The notes under the pieces were generated by a model. The model was not told the DNA's origin and searched no databases. It worked only from the letters and a program-made list of their open reading frames with translations. A DNA stretch of 27,732 nucleotides from the IMG/VR virus record IMGVR_UViG_2778261570_000016; one strand, 5' to 3'. Both the position numbers and the translations under genes were made by a program. Source of the stretch: a virus. Its lineage: Duplodnaviria; Heunggongvirae; Uroviricota; Caudoviricetes. Of this stretch, positions 6,502 to 24,043 are shown piece after piece (position 1 is the first letter of the stretch; each line of letters opens with the position of its first letter).

Positions 6502-7938
6502 ATGGCTGAGATCGAGATTTCTGTAAATCTCAGTTCTTCGCTGATGCGCATTCTTGAGGCTGAAGAAATTCAGCCGGGAACCGACATTGGCTATGAACTG
6601 TGTAAACTGCTGTGGCAGTACCATCCGCTGGGCGGAAAACTTGTCGAAAAACCCATACTGATGGCGATGTGTAAGCCGCGCCAGTATAACGTGGAGACAG
6701 ACCCTGACGAGAGGGTTGTGAGGCGTTTTCAGGAGGTATGGGAACGCATGAAGGTCAACGAGAAGATTAAAAATCTGTTTTTTCTGTCTCGTTGCTACGG
6801 TGCTGCAGCGATCGGCGTGGGCACCGACAGCGTTCCATGTCGTGAACCGCTTCCGACGTTCGGACTGACAGAAGATGACGTGTATATCAACGCGTGGGAT
6901 CCGTTGAACGCTTCCGGTTCGATGGTGACTGACCAGAACCCCAACAGCCCGTTTTTCCAGGAAGCCAATAAAAAACTGAAGATTGGCGGAAAAGACTGGC
7001 ATCCGTCACGCACACTGAAAATCTTCAACGGCACACCGATTTATCTGGAGTTTCAGAGTTCATCGTTCGGATTCACCGGGCGAAGCGTGTTTCAGCGAGT
7101 TCTTTATTCCCTGAAATCCTATATCAATACGATGGAGGCGAATGATCTCGTCAGCCAGAAGGCAGGCGTACTGGTGGCTAAAGTTGTGCAGAACGGTTCG
7201 AAAATTGACGGGATCATGGCTGCTGCCACGGGGCGTAAAAGGGAAAACGTGAAAGCCGCCAAAAATAAAGGCGTGTTGAGTATTGGAAAAGACGAAGACG
7301 TAAGTTCACTGAACCTGCAAAACATCGATGGGGCGCTGAATACATCCCGTGACAACATCATTGCTGATATTGCCGCCGGGAGTGACGTTCCGGCCATTAT
7401 TATCAAGGAAGAAGCATTCAGTAACGGATTCGGTGAAGGTAAGGAGGACTCGAAAGCTATCAGCCAGTATATCGATGGTGTACGCCAGCAGATTGAACCT
7501 GTGATGGATTATTTCGAACGCCTGGTGCAGTACATCGCCTGGAACGAGGAATTTTATCAGTCGCTGAAAAATGATTACCCGGACATCATAACCGACGACT
7601 ATAAAACCACGTTTTACCAGTGGCGACGTGAATTTACCGCGACGTGGCAGGAGCTGGTGGAGGAGTCGCCGGACAAACGCCGGGAAAGCGACAGTAAAGT
7701 GATTCAACAGGCGATAGCACTTTTCTCTGCCGTGTCGCCACAGGTTGATCCTGAAAACCGCGCCGCCCTTGCTGAATGGCTGGCAAGCCTTGTTAATGCC
7801 ACGCAAACCTATGGCGAAGCTCCACTCATCATTGATGTGGACGCGCTGGCGAATTATGAACCACCGAAGCAGGAGACGCCTGATGGCAATTTCCAGCCGG
7901 GCGGTGAGGAAGAAGAAACGGATCAGGACTCTGTATGA
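6502..7938 (+). CDS. Portal protein
   Basis: 478 aa, immediately after the large terminase and before a MuF-like head morphogenesis gene; acidic C-terminus. Confidence 0.7.
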   Translation: MAEIEISVNLSSSLMRILEAEEIQPGTDIGYELCKLLWQYHPLGGKLVEKPILMAMCKPRQYNVETDPDERVVRRFQEVWERMKVNEKIKNLFFLSRCYGAAAIGVGTDSVPCREPLPTFGLTEDDVYINAWDPLNASGSMVTDQNPNSPFFQEANKKLKIGGKDWHPSRTLKIFNGTPIYLEFQSSSFGFTGRSVFQRVLYSLKSYINTMEANDLVSQKAGVLVAKVVQNGSKIDGIMAAATGRKRENVKAAKNKGVLSIGKDEDVSSLNLQNIDGALNTSRDNIIADIAAGSDVPAIIIKEEAFSNGFGEGKEDSKAISQYIDGVRQQIEPVMDYFERLVQYIAWNEEFYQSLKNDYPDIITDDYKTTFYQWRREFTATWQELVEESPDKRRESDSKVIQQAIALFSAVSPQVDPENRAALAEWLASLVNATQTYGEAPLIIDVDALANYEPPKQETPDGNFQPGGEEEETDQDSV

Positions 7939-21106: not shown

Positions 21107-21136
21107 TACCGGCTCACTTTAAATTACATCCATAAA

Positions 21137-21178
21137 GCGAAAGCCCCGGCTGCTGGAACAGTTCGGGGCTTTTTGTAT
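21137..21178 (+). terminator. Rho-independent terminator, near-identical to the one at 1336-1375
   Basis: AGCCCCGG-ctgctggaacagt-TCGGGGCT followed by TTTTTG; about 19 nt of stem and loop identical to the terminator after the lysis genes. Confidence 0.7.
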
Positions 21179-21215
21179 CAACAGAACAGTATTTGTAATG
21201 GCATGGAGATTACTC

Positions 21216-21413
21216 ATGCAACCAAATTCTAGCGCACCTAAAGATAAATTTGGAGACGATTTGATGATTAAGGCTGAGACAACCCCGCAAGGGGCTGATA
21301 AGGCTGCGAGAATAATCGCAGTATGTCGGGGGATTCGGCATATTCTGACTCCAGTAGCGTGGATCATTTGCACCGCTCTGGTTACCGGTACCCTAATTTA
21401 CTTGAAAGGTTGA
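21216..21413 (+). CDS. Small membrane protein (65 aa)
   Basis: C-terminal hydrophobic helix (ILTPVAWIICTALVTGTLIYL); start ambiguous between 21198 and 21216. Confidence 0.35.
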   Translation: MQPNSSAPKDKFGDDLMIKAETTPQGADKAARIIAVCRGIRHILTPVAWIICTALVTGTLIYLKG

Positions 21414-21416
21414 CGC

Positions 21417-21764
21417 ATGAGAACATGGGGCCGCGTCACCGACGCGAACGGCAACAAAAAATGGGTTGCAGTAGAGTCAGACGCCAGCGGTGATTTCTCC
21501 TACGGCTGGCTGACGACGCTCATTCAGACGTTAAAGCTGGGGTTGGGGGAGTCGCCGTTTTACGCGAATTACGGTATTCCTGCGCAGCAGTGCATCGTGC
21601 AGCAGATTTACCCAGACTACTATGTGAACATGGTTCAGCAACAGTTTGCCGGGTATTTTGCATCATTGGCAATTTCAAAGGTAGATGGGGCAGAGAACCC
21701 CACCTATAACATCGATGTTGTGTTTTTTAATGGGACCAGTTACCGGACGCAGGTTCCGGTTTGA
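21417..21764 (+). CDS. Putative baseplate wedge protein (gp25 / GPW-like)
   Basis: 115 aa; size and position upstream of the gpJ-like gene; loose pattern match (LIQTLKLGLGESPFYANYG) to gp25-like proteins. Confidence 0.4.
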   Translation: MRTWGRVTDANGNKKWVAVESDASGDFSYGWLTTLIQTLKLGLGESPFYANYGIPAQQCIVQQIYPDYYVNMVQQQFAGYFASLAISKVDGAENPTYNIDVVFFNGTSYRTQVPV

Positions 21765-22228
21765 GGCAAGCTTTCGGGCATCAGTTGGGCCAGTGGCGTG
21801 TTAAGAAGTTCATCGCGTGGCATGACAATCCATCCACTTTTGCGTAGTAAGTGAATTGCCCATTCTGTGGTTATAACTGAGCCTGATTTGTGGTGCTCAA
21901 TGTGGGTAACCGAGCCGTTTCTGACGCGCATGATGATGTCAACATTCAGAGGGGGTTGTGTGCTGGTGGTATCCTCGCGCAGCTTCTTCTCGCACTCGAT
22001 GAAGTATCGGCGGATCTGGCGGCCTTTTTCGTTGCGCTCGACCATTGCCAGCTCTTTGGCGGTGTCCAGGGTTAGGTGGTAGTCTTTAGCTGGTCTGCCT
22101 CTACCGATTTTTTCCCGATTTTGGGAAATAATCAAAAAGTCCTGATTTTCTACGAATTCATACTCGCTGATTCGCTCGGTGATCCATGTAGCAAAGCGTT
22201 TACCTACTTCGAGAAAGGCGTGCATCAT
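21740..22228 (-). CDS. Putative antirepressor (AntA/AntB family)
   Basis: N-terminal HAFLEVGKRFATWITERISEYEFVENQDF and GRPAKDYHLTLDTAKELAMVERNEKGRQIRRYFIECEKKL resemble the conserved blocks of phage Ant-type antirepressors; only minus-strand module in the window; 3' end overlaps the convergent gene by about 25 nt. Confidence 0.65.
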   Translation of the reverse strand: MMHAFLEVGKRFATWITERISEYEFVENQDFLIISQNREKIGRGRPAKDYHLTLDTAKELAMVERNEKGRQIRRYFIECEKKLREDTTSTQPPLNVDIIMRVRNGSVTHIEHHKSGSVITTEWAIHLLRKSGWIVMPRDELLNTPLAQLMPESLPQTGTCVR

Positions 22229-22246
22229 AAATATTACCGCCTGATT

Positions 22247-22795
22247 TTACATGTTTTCTTTACAGGAATTGATTGCAGCCTTATATGCTTCAGGGAGGCC
22301 ATCTAATGGGAAGAATATTTTTTGTGGTTTTTCTTTGCTTTCAGCTGGCGGAGTATACCAAAAAGAAAAACTACCTTTCCCTTTAGCTTTTAACAAATCA
22401 CTAATCTTTAATGAGCTAATAGGACTGAACAAGTAACCTTCATTGATAGATGGGGTTGTTATAGAGTCCTGCTTTTGTTGTCCACTGATTTTATAGCTTA
22501 CAGGAAGGAACGGTGGTAAATCCATTTGTTTATATCCAATAAAATGATTGACAGTAACATCACCGGGCTCACATTGAGTTAACGGTGATATATCAATAAA
22601 TAAAGTTGATTTATCCTGCGGCAATTTGGATTCAACACCAATACGATAAGCCATAGTGGTAGGCATGGTAAACTCAGCATAATACCATTTACCGAACTGT
22701 TGAATGTCATTCATTCTCTCTGTGGCATCAATTGCATGAGAAACACCAGAAAATAGCAGTGAGCTAATCAAAATCCCTAATGAGTTAAATTTCAT
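22247..22795 (-). CDS. Secreted protein of unknown function (AT-rich moron)
   Basis: Signal peptide MKFNSLGILISSLLFSGVSHA with an A-x-A type cleavage site; AGAGGA RBS; gene body visibly AT-rich relative to flanking genes; 18 nt upstream of the antirepressor on the same strand. Confidence 0.6.
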   Translation of the reverse strand: MKFNSLGILISSLLFSGVSHAIDATERMNDIQQFGKWYYAEFTMPTTMAYRIGVESKLPQDKSTLFIDISPLTQCEPGDVTVNHFIGYKQMDLPPFLPVSYKISGQQKQDSITTPSINEGYLFSPISSLKISDLLKAKGKGSFSFWYTPPAESKEKPQKIFFPLDGLPEAYKAAINSCKENM

Positions 22796-22816
22796 AAAAT
22801 CCTCTTGAGATTAATT

Positions 22817-24043
22817 ATGTCAGAAATACCAATTACTATGACCAGTGCGGGTGCGCAGCCTACGCCACCCAATGATTTGCTCGCGAATCTTATCACCAGA
22901 GTTGCCGAAAAAGTACCTGGATATACAGCCAACCTTCCGGCGGGGCTTATTACAGACCTTGCCAGCACGGCTGTCGGGGCGCTGGCATTAATAGACCAGG
23001 CGCGGGTTGATCTTATTAACTCCGTAAGCCCATACGGCGCGAATATTCCGTTACTGATGCAACTCGGAAACATTTATGGAGCACAGAAGGGATTAAGTAC
23101 AAATACGGCTGTATACGTGGTGTTTGAGGCGTTGCCGGGGTTTGGTATCCCTAAAGGGTTTGTGGTTGGTGACGGTAACTACCAGTATGCAGTTTCCCGC
23201 GATACGGTGGTACCGGAAAGCGGGCAGACTGAGCCAGTCTACTGTGTGGCCACAACGTCAGGCTCATGGGCTGTACCGGAAGGGACCGTAACGCAGGTCA
23301 TTACATCAGTACCCAAAGACCAGCCTGTAAAATGCACGAACCTTACCGCAGGTATGCCCGGTCAGGAGGCGCAGACATGGGCATCTTACCGCGCCGAAGT
23401 CATGGAGTCCGGCATGTTTGGTGTGCAGGGAACACCGGATTGCTTTAAAGCGATGCTCAAATTAGTAAGCGGTGTGCGAGAAAACCTGATTTCTTTCCGG
23501 CAGTCGTCGCTGGGGAAATGGGTTGCGGTTGTTGGTGGCGGTGATCCGTATGACGTGGCTTATGCGATTTACAAATCTGTACCGGATATTTCGAAACTGA
23601 CCAACGATGTAAGCAATCCATCCGGTGCGGCAGTGGAAAAACGCACGGTTTCAATAACCGTTTCGCCGGACGTTTATCAGGTGCCGTTCGTTATCCCGTC
23701 ATCACAAAACGTCATGGTGCTAATCACCTGGAACACGGTGTCTGATGATTATGTTGATCCGGCGGGTATTGCTATGGCAGTGCAACAAAACGTTGCTGAT
23801 TACATCAATTCTATTGAAGTCGGTCACCCGATAAATCTGCTGCGTATCCAGGATATTTTTACCAGTTCTGTCAGGTTGCTGGTTGATGCGACGTTGATCT
23901 CAACAATCAGTGTGAGCATTGGCATTAACGGCCATATTGTTCTTCCGGCGAAAGACACAAGCCTGGTTTATGGCGATACCTATTCCTATTTTTCAACGGT
24001 GGCATCACAGGTTCAGGTCAACAAGTATGCAATATCTGACTGA
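22817..24043 (+). CDS. Baseplate wedge protein (gpJ / Mu gp47-like)
   Basis: About 408 aa; position immediately upstream of the gpI-like and tail fibre genes. Confidence 0.55.
   Translation: MSEIPITMTSAGAQPTPPNDLLANLITRVAEKVPGYTANLPAGLITDLASTAVGALALIDQARVDLINSVSPYGANIPLLMQLGNIYGAQKGLSTNTAVYVVFEALPGFGIPKGFVVGDGNYQYAVSRDTVVPESGQTEPVYCVATTSGSWAVPEGTVTQVITSVPKDQPVKCTNLTAGMPGQEAQTWASYRAEVMESGMFGVQGTPDCFKAMLKLVSGVRENLISFRQSSLGKWVAVVGGGDPYDVAYAIYKSVPDISKLTNDVSNPSGAAVEKRTVSITVSPDVYQVPFVIPSSQNVMVLITWNTVSDDYVDPAGIAMAVQQNVADYINSIEVGHPINLLRIQDIFTSSVRLLVDATLISTISVSIGINGHIVLPAKDTSLVYGDTYSYFSTVASQVQVNKYAISD

What the first reader, a model, noticed from the sequence alone, without database searches (positions are those of the whole stretch)
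21740..22816. Inverted, AT-rich two-gene insertion (secreted protein plus antirepressor) inside the baseplate cluster
Every structural gene is on the + strand except a minus-strand pair wedged between the gp25-like and gpJ-like baseplate genes. The promoter-proximal gene encodes a 182 aa protein with a classical signal peptide and is strikingly AT-rich compared with its neighbours, the signature of a horizontally acquired moron. It is followed 18 nt later by an AntA-type antirepressor. The secreted protein has no motif I recognise, so it could be an undescribed lysogenic-conversion, superinfection-exclusion or anti-defence factor. An antirepressor co-transcribed from a moron promoter is itself unusual, since Ant expression normally has to be tightly repressed in a lysogen. 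Its 3' end also overlaps the convergent + strand gene by about 25 nt.
Basis: partly seen in the sequence, partly recalled or inferred. Interest (0 to 1): 0.7.

Follow-up and report, generated by a model that had tools for sequence, protein, structure and literature searches.

The report
Prophage cargo slot with secreted protein
Inside the tail-baseplate genes of an E. coli prophage sits a swappable cargo slot that here holds a well-conserved gene for an exported protein of unknown function and a broken leftover of an antirepressor gene; this is an ordinary kind of prophage accessory locus, though the exported protein family is uncharacterised.

Summary
Two minus-strand genes (22795-22247, 182 aa; 22228-21740, 162 aa) lie between a 115-aa gene and baseplate J. 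The first is the most AT-rich stretch of the window (GC 0.36 against 0.50).

Related E. coli, Salmonella, Citrobacter and Buttiauxella prophages show this position is a variable cargo slot. Its alternative contents are mostly AT-rich genes for signal-peptide proteins.

The "co-transcribed antirepressor" is a deletion product. An 816-bp deletion removed a second secreted-protein gene, ant's own control region and 24 conserved N-terminal codons, fusing the lost gene's ATG to ant. Three of eight copies with this deletion carry further lesions, so it is probably a relic.

Most likely function of the 182-aa protein: a periplasmic, prophage-expressed envelope factor, possibly superinfection exclusion. 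This is inferred, not shown.

Verdict: new member of a known kind, modest interest.

The parts
22247..22795 (-). Gene for a 182-aa exported protein ('p182'). Residues 1-21 form a Sec-type signal peptide (22795-22733). The mature part is a beta-sandwich with a C-terminal helix and two invariant Cys (C75, C178).
22796..22822 (-). Short upstream region of p182. It holds the Shine-Dalgarno AAGAGGA (22806-22800) and a candidate extended -10 promoter TGaCATAAT (22822-22814). The CAT of that element is the complement of the baseplate J start codon.
   Evidence: Found in the sequence. It is the only TGNYATAAT match in the window on either strand. The standard -35/-10 scan finds no promoter. The element is CATAGT in some relatives and is not conserved in the Salmonella and Buttiauxella loci. 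It is a consensus match only.
22229..22246 (-). 18-nt spacer with a ribosome-binding site. In the undeleted relatives it precedes a 154-aa secreted-protein gene (rac61 type).
   Evidence: Window 22225-23200 is colinear with L010 3145-4120 and L002 4977-5952. Junction alignment.
22220..22228 (-). Deletion junction (between 22224 and 22225). The ATG of the lost 154-aa gene is fused in frame to about codon 26 of ant, giving the N-terminus MMHAFLEV.
   Evidence: The same junction sequence ATGATGCACGCC is present in L001, L009, L018, L023, L024, L025 and L027.
21740..22228 (-). 5'-truncated AntA-family antirepressor gene (162 aa instead of 185-189 aa). Probably a relic.
   Evidence: Pfam AntA at 88 bits covers model positions 6-68 only. 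Close homologues are mostly 185-189 aa. The missing 24 residues are highly conserved (A5) and form two of the four strands of the N-domain sheet in the AF2 model of a full-length homologue. 3 of 8 copies with the same deletion carry a stop, a frameshift or internal deletions.
21740..21764 (.). 25-nt convergent overlap of the ant 3' end with the 3' end of the 115-aa gene.
   Evidence: The same overlap is annotated in every ant-carrying relative.
21417..21764 (+). Left flank of the slot: conserved 115-aa protein (phrog_7986), in the gpW/gp25 position by gene order only.
   Evidence: No Pfam, NCBIfam or PDB-sequence hit. 79-94% identical in Salmonella, Buttiauxella and Citrobacter phages.
22817..24043 (+). 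Right flank of the slot: baseplate J-like wedge protein (408 aa from ATG 22817).
   Evidence: Pfam Baseplate_J 1.4e-7 and phrog_6 8e-38. Annotated as 1227 nt in relatives.

Best explanation
Setting: The region is the cargo slot of a temperate phage with a contractile (myovirus-type) tail and a lambdoid early region (Rac-SA53 type), integrated at the Rac locus of E. coli. Between two conserved baseplate genes, this phage lineage tolerates leftward-reading accessory genes.

The 182-aa gene: It is the long-term resident of the slot, always divergent from baseplate J with 21-29 nt between start codons. It encodes a Sec-exported soluble beta-sandwich protein with an IalB-like fold.

Proposed function (inferred): It is transcribed leftward from a weak extended -10 promoter that overlaps the baseplate J start codon, independently of and antisense to the late operon. 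It is exported to the periplasm. There it acts on the cell envelope for the benefit of the lysogen or phage. The most probable role is interference with the periplasmic stage of infection by incoming phages, that is, superinfection exclusion in the manner of T4 Spackle. Masking an outer-membrane receptor is less likely.

The second gene: It is not a partner by design. An 816-bp deletion removed a second secreted-protein gene, ant's own regulatory leader and ant's first 24 codons. That left a truncated ant translated from the lost gene's start codon, most likely inactive.

Shown:
- the anatomy
- the slot variability
- the deletion
- the conservation and purifying selection
- the fold match

Inferred:
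- export
- the promoter
- expression in the lysogen
- the exclusion function
- the inactivity of the truncated Ant
For: Slot variability:
- Roughly 96 of 5426 complete E. coli genomes carry this baseplate module at 90% identity or better.
- Slot contents found: ant plus a PGAP-named LprI lysozyme-inhibitor-family protein; an HSDR_N nuclease-like protein without ant; ant plus a 179-aa secreted protein; ant plus a 154-aa secreted protein plus p182; truncated ant plus p182.
- All cargo is AT-rich (GC 0.27-0.37). Four of the five cargo families start with signal peptides.

p182 is a real, old resident:
- It holds the same position in Salmonella, Buttiauxella (alone in the slot) and Citrobacter phages.
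- It is 50-53% identical where baseplate J is 57%.
- GC is 0.34-0.36 against 0.52 everywhere.
- dN/dS is about 0.1.

Promoter: The only TGNYATAAT match in the window lies 19 nt upstream of the ATG.

Not receptor-specific: p182 stays 97-100% identical across phages whose fibre tips are only 42-96% identical.

Deletion and decay of ant.

Precedent: A periplasmic phage protein blocking the incoming tail lysozyme is documented for T4 Spackle (PMC7677548, PMC7650644). This phage's own tape-measure-like protein carries an SLT transglycosylase domain.
Against: - No experiment or transcript data exist, and the promoter is a consensus match that is weaker or absent in distant relatives.
- The standard promoter and terminator scan finds nothing in 21300-23300.
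- p182 and the other cargo proteins have no hit in PADLOC, and p182 none in Pfam or NCBIfam. Nothing ties p182 to any known exclusion or defence protein.
- The IalB family itself has no known molecular mechanism.
- The host strain carries two prophages with identical late regions, including identical p182. That is not what a strong homotypic exclusion factor would predict.
- Five of eight truncated ant copies, including the one in the window, are still intact ORFs. Pairwise dN/dS among them is mixed (0.05-0.85), so residual function is not excluded.
Confidence: 0.55

Rival explanations
1. p182 is a lysogenic-conversion factor that changes the host's own envelope physiology or host-association. 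Candidates are adhesion or invasion, stress tolerance, or envelope homeostasis, by analogy with IalB-domain proteins. On this reading it is not an anti-phage function.
For: The only clear structural relative is Bartonella IalB. IalB is linked to erythrocyte invasion, and the IalB-domain protein RgsG is an essential periplasmic growth-pole protein in Sinorhizobium. The prophage family is common in porcine ETEC, STEC and other animal isolates. AT-rich, signal-peptide morons are the classic form of conversion genes (PMC3594210).
Against: The similarity is fold-level only, at 14-17% identity and with no Pfam IalB hit. The IalB mechanism is unknown. The gene also sits in phages of the environmental genus Buttiauxella and of commensal strains. 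It tracks the phage lineage rather than a host pathotype.
Confidence: 0.2
2. p182 serves the phage's own lytic cycle, for example by modulating peptidoglycan or lysis timing, or by protecting the infected cell from lysis from without. On this reading it is a lineage-specific core accessory gene rather than a prophage-expressed moron.
For: It holds a fixed position next to baseplate J and has diverged in step with the structural genes across four genera. It is the sole occupant of the slot in the Buttiauxella phage.
Against: Many E. coli members of the same phage family lack it and carry other cargo instead, including strains such as E. coli W, so it is dispensable. Its orientation is antisense to the late operon. 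Its composition is unlike that of the phage backbone.
Confidence: 0.12
3. One reading: the pair is a functional two-gene moron operon in which an active antirepressor is deliberately co-expressed with the secreted protein, giving an unusual induction circuit.
For: The two ORFs are 18 nt apart with no terminator between them. The truncated ant ORF is intact in the window and in four other loci. PGAP annotates it as an intact gene.
Against: The arrangement arose by a single 816-bp deletion. The deletion removed 24 conserved residues that form two of the four strands of the AntA-domain sheet. It also removed the whole conserved upstream region. 3 of 8 descendants have a stop, a frameshift or deletions, whereas 0 of 10 undeleted ant genes and 0 of 8 adjacent p182 genes are damaged. 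Constitutive co-expression of an active Ant would destabilise lysogeny, a point that rests on established knowledge of P22 and P1 immI regulation.
Confidence: 0.08
4. The 182-aa ORF is a chance or decaying open frame in AT-rich junk DNA.
For: It has no Pfam, NCBIfam or PADLOC match, and its base composition is atypical.
Against: The length is conserved (175-183 aa, 12 of 13 at 182-183) across 13 close homologues down to 50% identity, and 51 more distant clusters exist. dN/dS is about 0.1, with dS up to 1.6. The AF2 model is confident and has a specific PDB match.
Confidence: 0.01

Closest known systems
Morons of temperate phages (for example lambda bor and lom, HK97 gp15; reviewed in PMC3594210)
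   Same: An accessory gene wedged between conserved late genes. Its base composition differs from the backbone. It is present in some relatives and replaced in others. It reads independently of, and here against, late transcription. It encodes an envelope-targeted protein.
   Different: No terminator, and only a weak candidate promoter that sits inside the neighbouring gene's start. The gene has stayed in one position and diverged with the phage across four genera, so it is not a recent add-on. Expression in the lysogen is untested.
[quoted passage not shown]
   Same: A fixed position between conserved phage genes whose content is swapped among close relatives. One alternative cargo is a nuclease-like protein with a type I restriction HSDR_N domain.
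   Different: None of the six cargo proteins tested matches a PADLOC defence model. Most cargo here consists of single small exported proteins rather than cytoplasmic defence systems. The phage family is also different.
T4 Spackle (gp61.3), the periplasmic superinfection-exclusion protein that inhibits the gp5 tail lysozyme (PMC7677548, PMC7650644)
   Same: A small phage-encoded protein with a Sec signal peptide that would act in the periplasm. The present phage also delivers a tail-borne peptidoglycan hydrolase (SLT domain). Another cargo in the same slot is named by PGAP as a lysozyme-inhibitor-family protein.
   Different: No sequence or fold similarity was detected: the fold searches return IalB, not Spackle. 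Spackle is an early lytic gene of a virulent phage. Inhibition of any hydrolase by p182 is untested.
IalB / COG5342 family (Bartonella invasion-associated locus B, PDB 3DTD; Sinorhizobium RgsG)
   Different: No detectable sequence relationship with Pfam or with PDB sequences. It is encoded by enterobacterial prophages rather than alphaproteobacterial chromosomes. It has a conserved Cys pair and a C-terminal helix, whose presence in IalB I did not check.
Antirepressor modules with RNA control (P1/P7 c4-icd-ant, P22 immI sar-ant)
   Same: In the undeleted relatives, ant lies inside the late region. It is preceded by a promoter-like site, a short hairpin with a T-run, and a conserved structured RNA.
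   Different: The RNA matches Rfam sRNA-Xcc1 (RF02221), not C4 or sar, and its role is untested. In the window all of this has been deleted, and ant is truncated.

Membership tests
Moron (independent accessory transcription unit in a phage genome) | Lies between genes that are conserved neighbours in related phages, and is present, absent or replaced among relatives | tested here: met
   At least five different contents occupy the slot between the same 115-aa gene and baseplate J. No relative with a completely empty slot was seen.
Moron (independent accessory transcription unit in a phage genome) | Base composition distinct from the surrounding phage genome | tested here: met
   GC 0.361 and GC3 0.30 against a window mean of 0.498, z = -4.0. 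The same contrast holds in four genera. It applies to p182 only; ant has GC 0.50.
Moron (independent accessory transcription unit in a phage genome) | Own promoter and terminator | tested here: inconclusive
   The standard scan finds no promoter and no terminator. One extended -10 match lies 19 nt upstream of the ATG and is unique in the window. It is not conserved in distant relatives.
Moron (independent accessory transcription unit in a phage genome) | Expressed from the repressed prophage | not testable with these tools
   Needs RNA-seq or reporter data from a lysogen.
AntA/AntB antirepressor family (Pfam PF08346) | AntA domain match above the Pfam gathering score | tested here: met
   88 bits against a cut-off of 27, E = 6e-25. 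PHROG anti-repressor families match down to 4e-58.
AntA/AntB antirepressor family (Pfam PF08346) | Complete N-terminal domain as in full-length members | tested here: not met
   The match starts at model position 6. Close homologues are mostly 185-189 aa. 24 conserved residues are missing, and they form strands 8-13 and 16-22 of the four-strand sheet in the AF2 model of P0067.
AntA/AntB antirepressor family (Pfam PF08346) | Binds and inactivates a prophage repressor | not testable with these tools
   Needs induction or binding assays.
IalB family (Pfam PF06776 / COG5342) | Sequence-profile match to the family | tested here: not met
   No Pfam hit for p182 or any of 35 family members at E up to 1. 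The profile against PDB sequences does not find 3DTD at E up to 10.
IalB family (Pfam PF06776 / COG5342) | IalB fold | tested here: met
Sec-exported periplasmic protein | N-terminal signal peptide with a signal peptidase I site and no lipobox | tested here: inconclusive
   The n/h/c regions and the S-H-A|I site were seen by inspection and are conserved in the family as ANA|VD or AHA|VD. pLDDT is below 50 for residues 1-5 and 13-26, and the 10-residue block means for residues 1-30 are 43-48. No signal-peptide predictor was available.
Known anti-phage defence or exclusion proteins | Match to a curated defence-system model | tested here: not met
   PADLOC gives 0 families for p182, the truncated Ant and four alternative cargo proteins.
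gp25/gpW baseplate wedge family (label given to the left flank) | Sequence match to GPW_gp25 or to solved gp25-like proteins | tested here: not met
   No Pfam, NCBIfam or PDB-sequence hit for the 115-aa protein. Only gene order suggests the role, and its fold was not tested.

The most novel reading that the evidence does not exclude
p182 founds an undescribed family of phage-encoded periplasmic proteins with an IalB-like fold. The family would block a periplasmic step of phage genome delivery, for example the tail-borne SLT transglycosylase or channel formation at the inner membrane. On this reading, the baseplate slot of this phage lineage is a dedicated reservoir of exported exclusion factors, in parallel to the cytoplasmic defence hotspots of P2 and P4. 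That would also give the first molecular activity for the IalB fold.
Probability: 0.2. Interest if true: 0.6.

Novelty: new member of a known kind. Interest (0 to 1): 0.35.

Why it matters
- If p182 and the other exported cargo proteins of this slot prove to be exclusion factors, they would add a class of envelope-level phage resistance determinants that current defence-finder models do not recognise.
- Such a result would also give a functional handle on the IalB fold, whose mechanism is unknown.
- For annotation, the case shows that an apparently intact 'antirepressor' in these prophages is a deletion product that should be treated as a probable pseudogene.
- It also shows that AT-richness alone does not date an acquisition.
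- Otherwise this is a typical prophage accessory locus.

Tried and rejected
Searches on p182 that found nothing:
- Pfam, NCBIfam and PADLOC gave no hits; PHROGs returned only phrog_31333, function unknown.
- Pfam at E up to 1 on 35 family members gave only scattered chance hits.
- The family profile against PDB sequences gave only chance hits to SarX.
- BFVD viral structures gave only weak matches to uncharacterised T4-like phage proteins, with TM about 0.5.

Searches that could not be run or gave little:
- The afdb50 fold library was unavailable.
- The search for related loci on genome contigs with the wide alignments failed because no stretch was conserved enough.
- As a result, the contexts of the distant family members are known only from two short metagenomic contigs. 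Those lie next to toxin-antitoxin genes and a gamma-PGA-hydrolase-like gene.

Ideas tested and dropped:
- A LexA box upstream of full-length ant in relatives: none found.
- Flanking repeats that could mark a recombination site for the slot: none.
- Kinship between p182 and the other secreted cargo proteins: none beyond the signal peptide.
- Receptor masking in the style of Cor or Llp: made unlikely by the absence of a lipobox and the lack of covariation with the tail-fibre tip.
- A chance ORF: rejected on conservation and dN/dS.
Full report
**What is in the sequence**

The window carries two minus-strand ORFs, 22795..22247 (182 aa, called p182 here) and 22228..21740 (162 aa). They are 18 nt apart. 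The second overlaps the convergent 115-aa ORF 21417..21764 by 25 nt.

- p182 has GC 0.361 and GC3 0.30. All 549-nt windows of the sequence average 0.498 (z = -4.0), and this is the lowest-GC stretch of the window. The ant ORF has ordinary composition.
- The 162-aa protein matches Pfam AntA at 6e-25. The downstream + strand gene matches Baseplate_J and phrog_6.
- In relatives, baseplate J starts at ATG 22817, so only 21 nt separate the divergent start codons.
- Other long minus-strand ORFs in the window are shadow frames without family hits.
- The 'gp25-like' label for the 115-aa protein rests on gene order alone.

**Where the window comes from**

It is 100% identical to a prophage of E. coli TUM1881 at the Rac locus. 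That prophage has a lambdoid early region and a contractile-tail late region. Its closest deposited phages are Escherichia phage Rac-SA53 and 'Actinobacillus' phage vB_Apl-pPE4. About 96 of 5426 complete E. coli genomes carry this baseplate module at 90% identity or better.

**The slot is a variable cargo position**

The same 115-aa gene and baseplate J flank different contents in related prophages:

- full-length ant plus a + strand protein that PGAP names LprI lysozyme-inhibitor family
- a 386-aa protein with a type I restriction HSDR_N domain, and no ant
- ant plus a 179-aa protein, or split versions of it
- ant plus a 154-aa protein plus p182 (Rac-SA53, ETEC6335)
- truncated ant plus p182 (the window, pPE4, U90)

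All cargo genes are AT-rich (GC 0.27-0.37). All except the HSDR_N protein begin with signal peptides. None matches a PADLOC defence model. The cargo proteins are unrelated to each other beyond the signal peptide. No flanking repeats mark the slot.

**p182 is a real gene and an old resident**

- Conservation: Thirteen close homologues are all 175-183 aa (12 of them 182-183), at 50-98% identity, with two invariant cysteines. A profile search finds 51 clusters in all, mostly metagenomic.
- Selection: dN/dS is 0.05-0.25, and 0.11 at dS 1.6.
- Position: In Salmonella, Buttiauxella and Citrobacter prophages the homologue sits in exactly the same place, divergent from baseplate J with 21-29 nt between start codons. 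In Buttiauxella it is the only gene in the slot.
- Divergence: Its identity to the window copy (50-53%) is close to that of baseplate J (57%) in those phages. In phages with 92-93% identical baseplate J it is only 66-71% identical, so it evolves faster or its alleles are exchanged.
- Composition: It is AT-rich (0.34-0.36) next to a GC 0.52 baseplate J in every case. The composition is therefore a maintained property, not a sign of recent acquisition.

**Fold of p182**

AlphaFold2 on the family alignment gives pLDDT 75 and pTM 0.70. The model has a disordered signal peptide, a beta-sandwich and a C-terminal helix.

- Foldseek independently ranks six chains of 3DTD first, with E 3e-5 to 2e-4 and TM 0.67-0.72.
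- There is no sequence-level link to the IalB family.
- IalB-domain proteins are envelope proteins of unknown mechanism.

**Expression signals**

The standard scan finds no sigma-70 promoter and no terminator in 21300-23300. The only match to an extended -10 consensus (TGNYATAAT) in the whole window, on either strand, is TGACATAAT at 22822..22814 on the minus strand. It lies 19 nt upstream of the p182 ATG and overlaps the baseplate J start codon. It is CATAGT in several relatives and not recognisable in the distant loci, so it remains a candidate only.

**The antirepressor is a deletion product**

- The deletion: Compared with ETEC6335 and Rac-SA53, the window lacks 816 bp. Window 22224 aligns to L010 2328, and 22225 aligns to L010 3145. 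At the junction, the ATG of the 154-aa gene is fused to about codon 26 of ant, giving MMHAFLEV. The 18-nt spacer is the one that normally precedes the 154-aa gene.
- Protein lost: The deletion removed the 154-aa gene and 24 N-terminal Ant residues. Those residues are nearly invariant in full-length homologues, which are mostly 185-189 aa. In the AF2 model they form two of the four strands of the N-domain sheet.
- Control region lost: It also removed a conserved 264-337-nt region upstream of ant. That region holds a promoter-like site, a hairpin with a T-run, a palindrome, and a match to Rfam sRNA-Xcc1 at 70-78 bits against a gathering score of 53. The window has no Rfam match at all.
- Decay since: Eight loci share the same junction. 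Three of them have further damage in ant: a stop in L027, a frameshift in L018, and two in-frame deletions in U90. p182 is intact in all eight, and ten undeleted ant genes are all intact.
- Conclusion: The truncated ant is therefore probably a relic, although the window's copy is still an open frame.

**Function**

What is shown is the anatomy and the evolution. The function is inferred.

Points for an envelope-acting, prophage-expressed factor:
- The signal peptide and soluble fold point to the periplasm.
- The slot's alternative cargo is mostly exported too, and one is named as a lysozyme-inhibitor-family protein.
- The phage injects through a tail that carries an SLT transglycosylase.
- T4 Spackle sets a precedent for periplasmic exclusion by inhibiting a tail lysozyme (PMC7677548, PMC7650644).

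Points against receptor masking:
- There is no lipobox.
- p182 stays 97-100% identical across phages with very different fibre tips.

Point against strong homotypic exclusion:
- TUM1881 carries two prophages with identical late regions.

I put superinfection exclusion or defence at the periplasmic step at roughly one in three. A host-directed conversion function is about one in five, and a lytic-cycle helper about one in eight.

**Verdict**

The locus is a typical moron-type cargo slot, comparable in logic to the P2/P4 hotspots (PMC9122126) and to classic morons (PMC3594210). It holds an uncharacterised exported protein family and a degraded antirepressor. This is a new member of a known kind, of modest interest.

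Noticed in passing
L002 4270-4353 (-), L010 2438-2521 (-), L004 2425-2510 (-), L006 2410-2494 (-); absent from the window: In relatives with full-length ant, an Rfam sRNA-Xcc1 (RF02221) match of 70-78 bits (gathering score 53) ends about 34 nt upstream of the ant ATG. It is preceded by a promoter-like site, a hairpin with a T-run, and the palindrome GTGGTTGCAtcaTGTGCAACCAC. A paper on APSE phages reports the same RNA family upstream of an ORF6N (Ant-like) gene. This RNA family may be a leader or regulator of antirepressor-type genes rather than only an integron sRNA.
   Followed up: partly
window 21107-21416: The gap between the V-like baseplate gene and the 115-aa gene is a second variable spot. 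It is 310 nt here, and 249, 453, 695 or 838 nt in E. coli relatives. In the Citrobacter phage a YafO-type toxin-antitoxin pair lies between ant and the 115-aa gene, and in the Salmonella phages hok/gef-like and other genes are inserted further upstream in the baseplate cluster, beyond the 331-aa baseplate-hub homologue.
   Followed up: no
L003 and L028 (E. coli TUM1881, NZ_CP128979.1, around 2.94-2.97 Mb and 3.43-3.47 Mb): The same genome carries two prophages whose late-region proteins have identical accession numbers, including p182 and the truncated Ant. They sit at two different chromosomal sites, next to pphA/yebW and next to ompN/uspF. This is either double lysogeny or gene conversion between resident prophages.
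   Followed up: partly
L001 (PP818812.1): 'Actinobacillus phage vB_Apl-pPE4' is 96-99% identical to E. coli prophages over this region, so the stated host looks doubtful.
   Followed up: no
window 6502-7938 (+): The gene in the portal position, directly after the large terminase gene, is named 'anti-CBASS protein Acb1 family protein' by PGAP in TUM1881. This looks like an annotation artefact.
   Followed up: no
CP100067.1 31120-31665 (PLSDB plasmid record, 47.7 kb): The only plasmid record with a p182 homologue (92% identity) is a 47.7-kb non-mobilisable E. coli 'plasmid' of phage-genome size. It may be a circularised copy of this phage type.
   Followed up: no
window 22817-22906; NZ_JBREQR010000002.1 146555-146644: A 90-nt fragment identical in 95.6% of positions to the first 90 nt of baseplate J lies under a 'shikimate transporter' annotation in another E. 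coli record (hit H70). It may be a prophage remnant.
   Followed up: no
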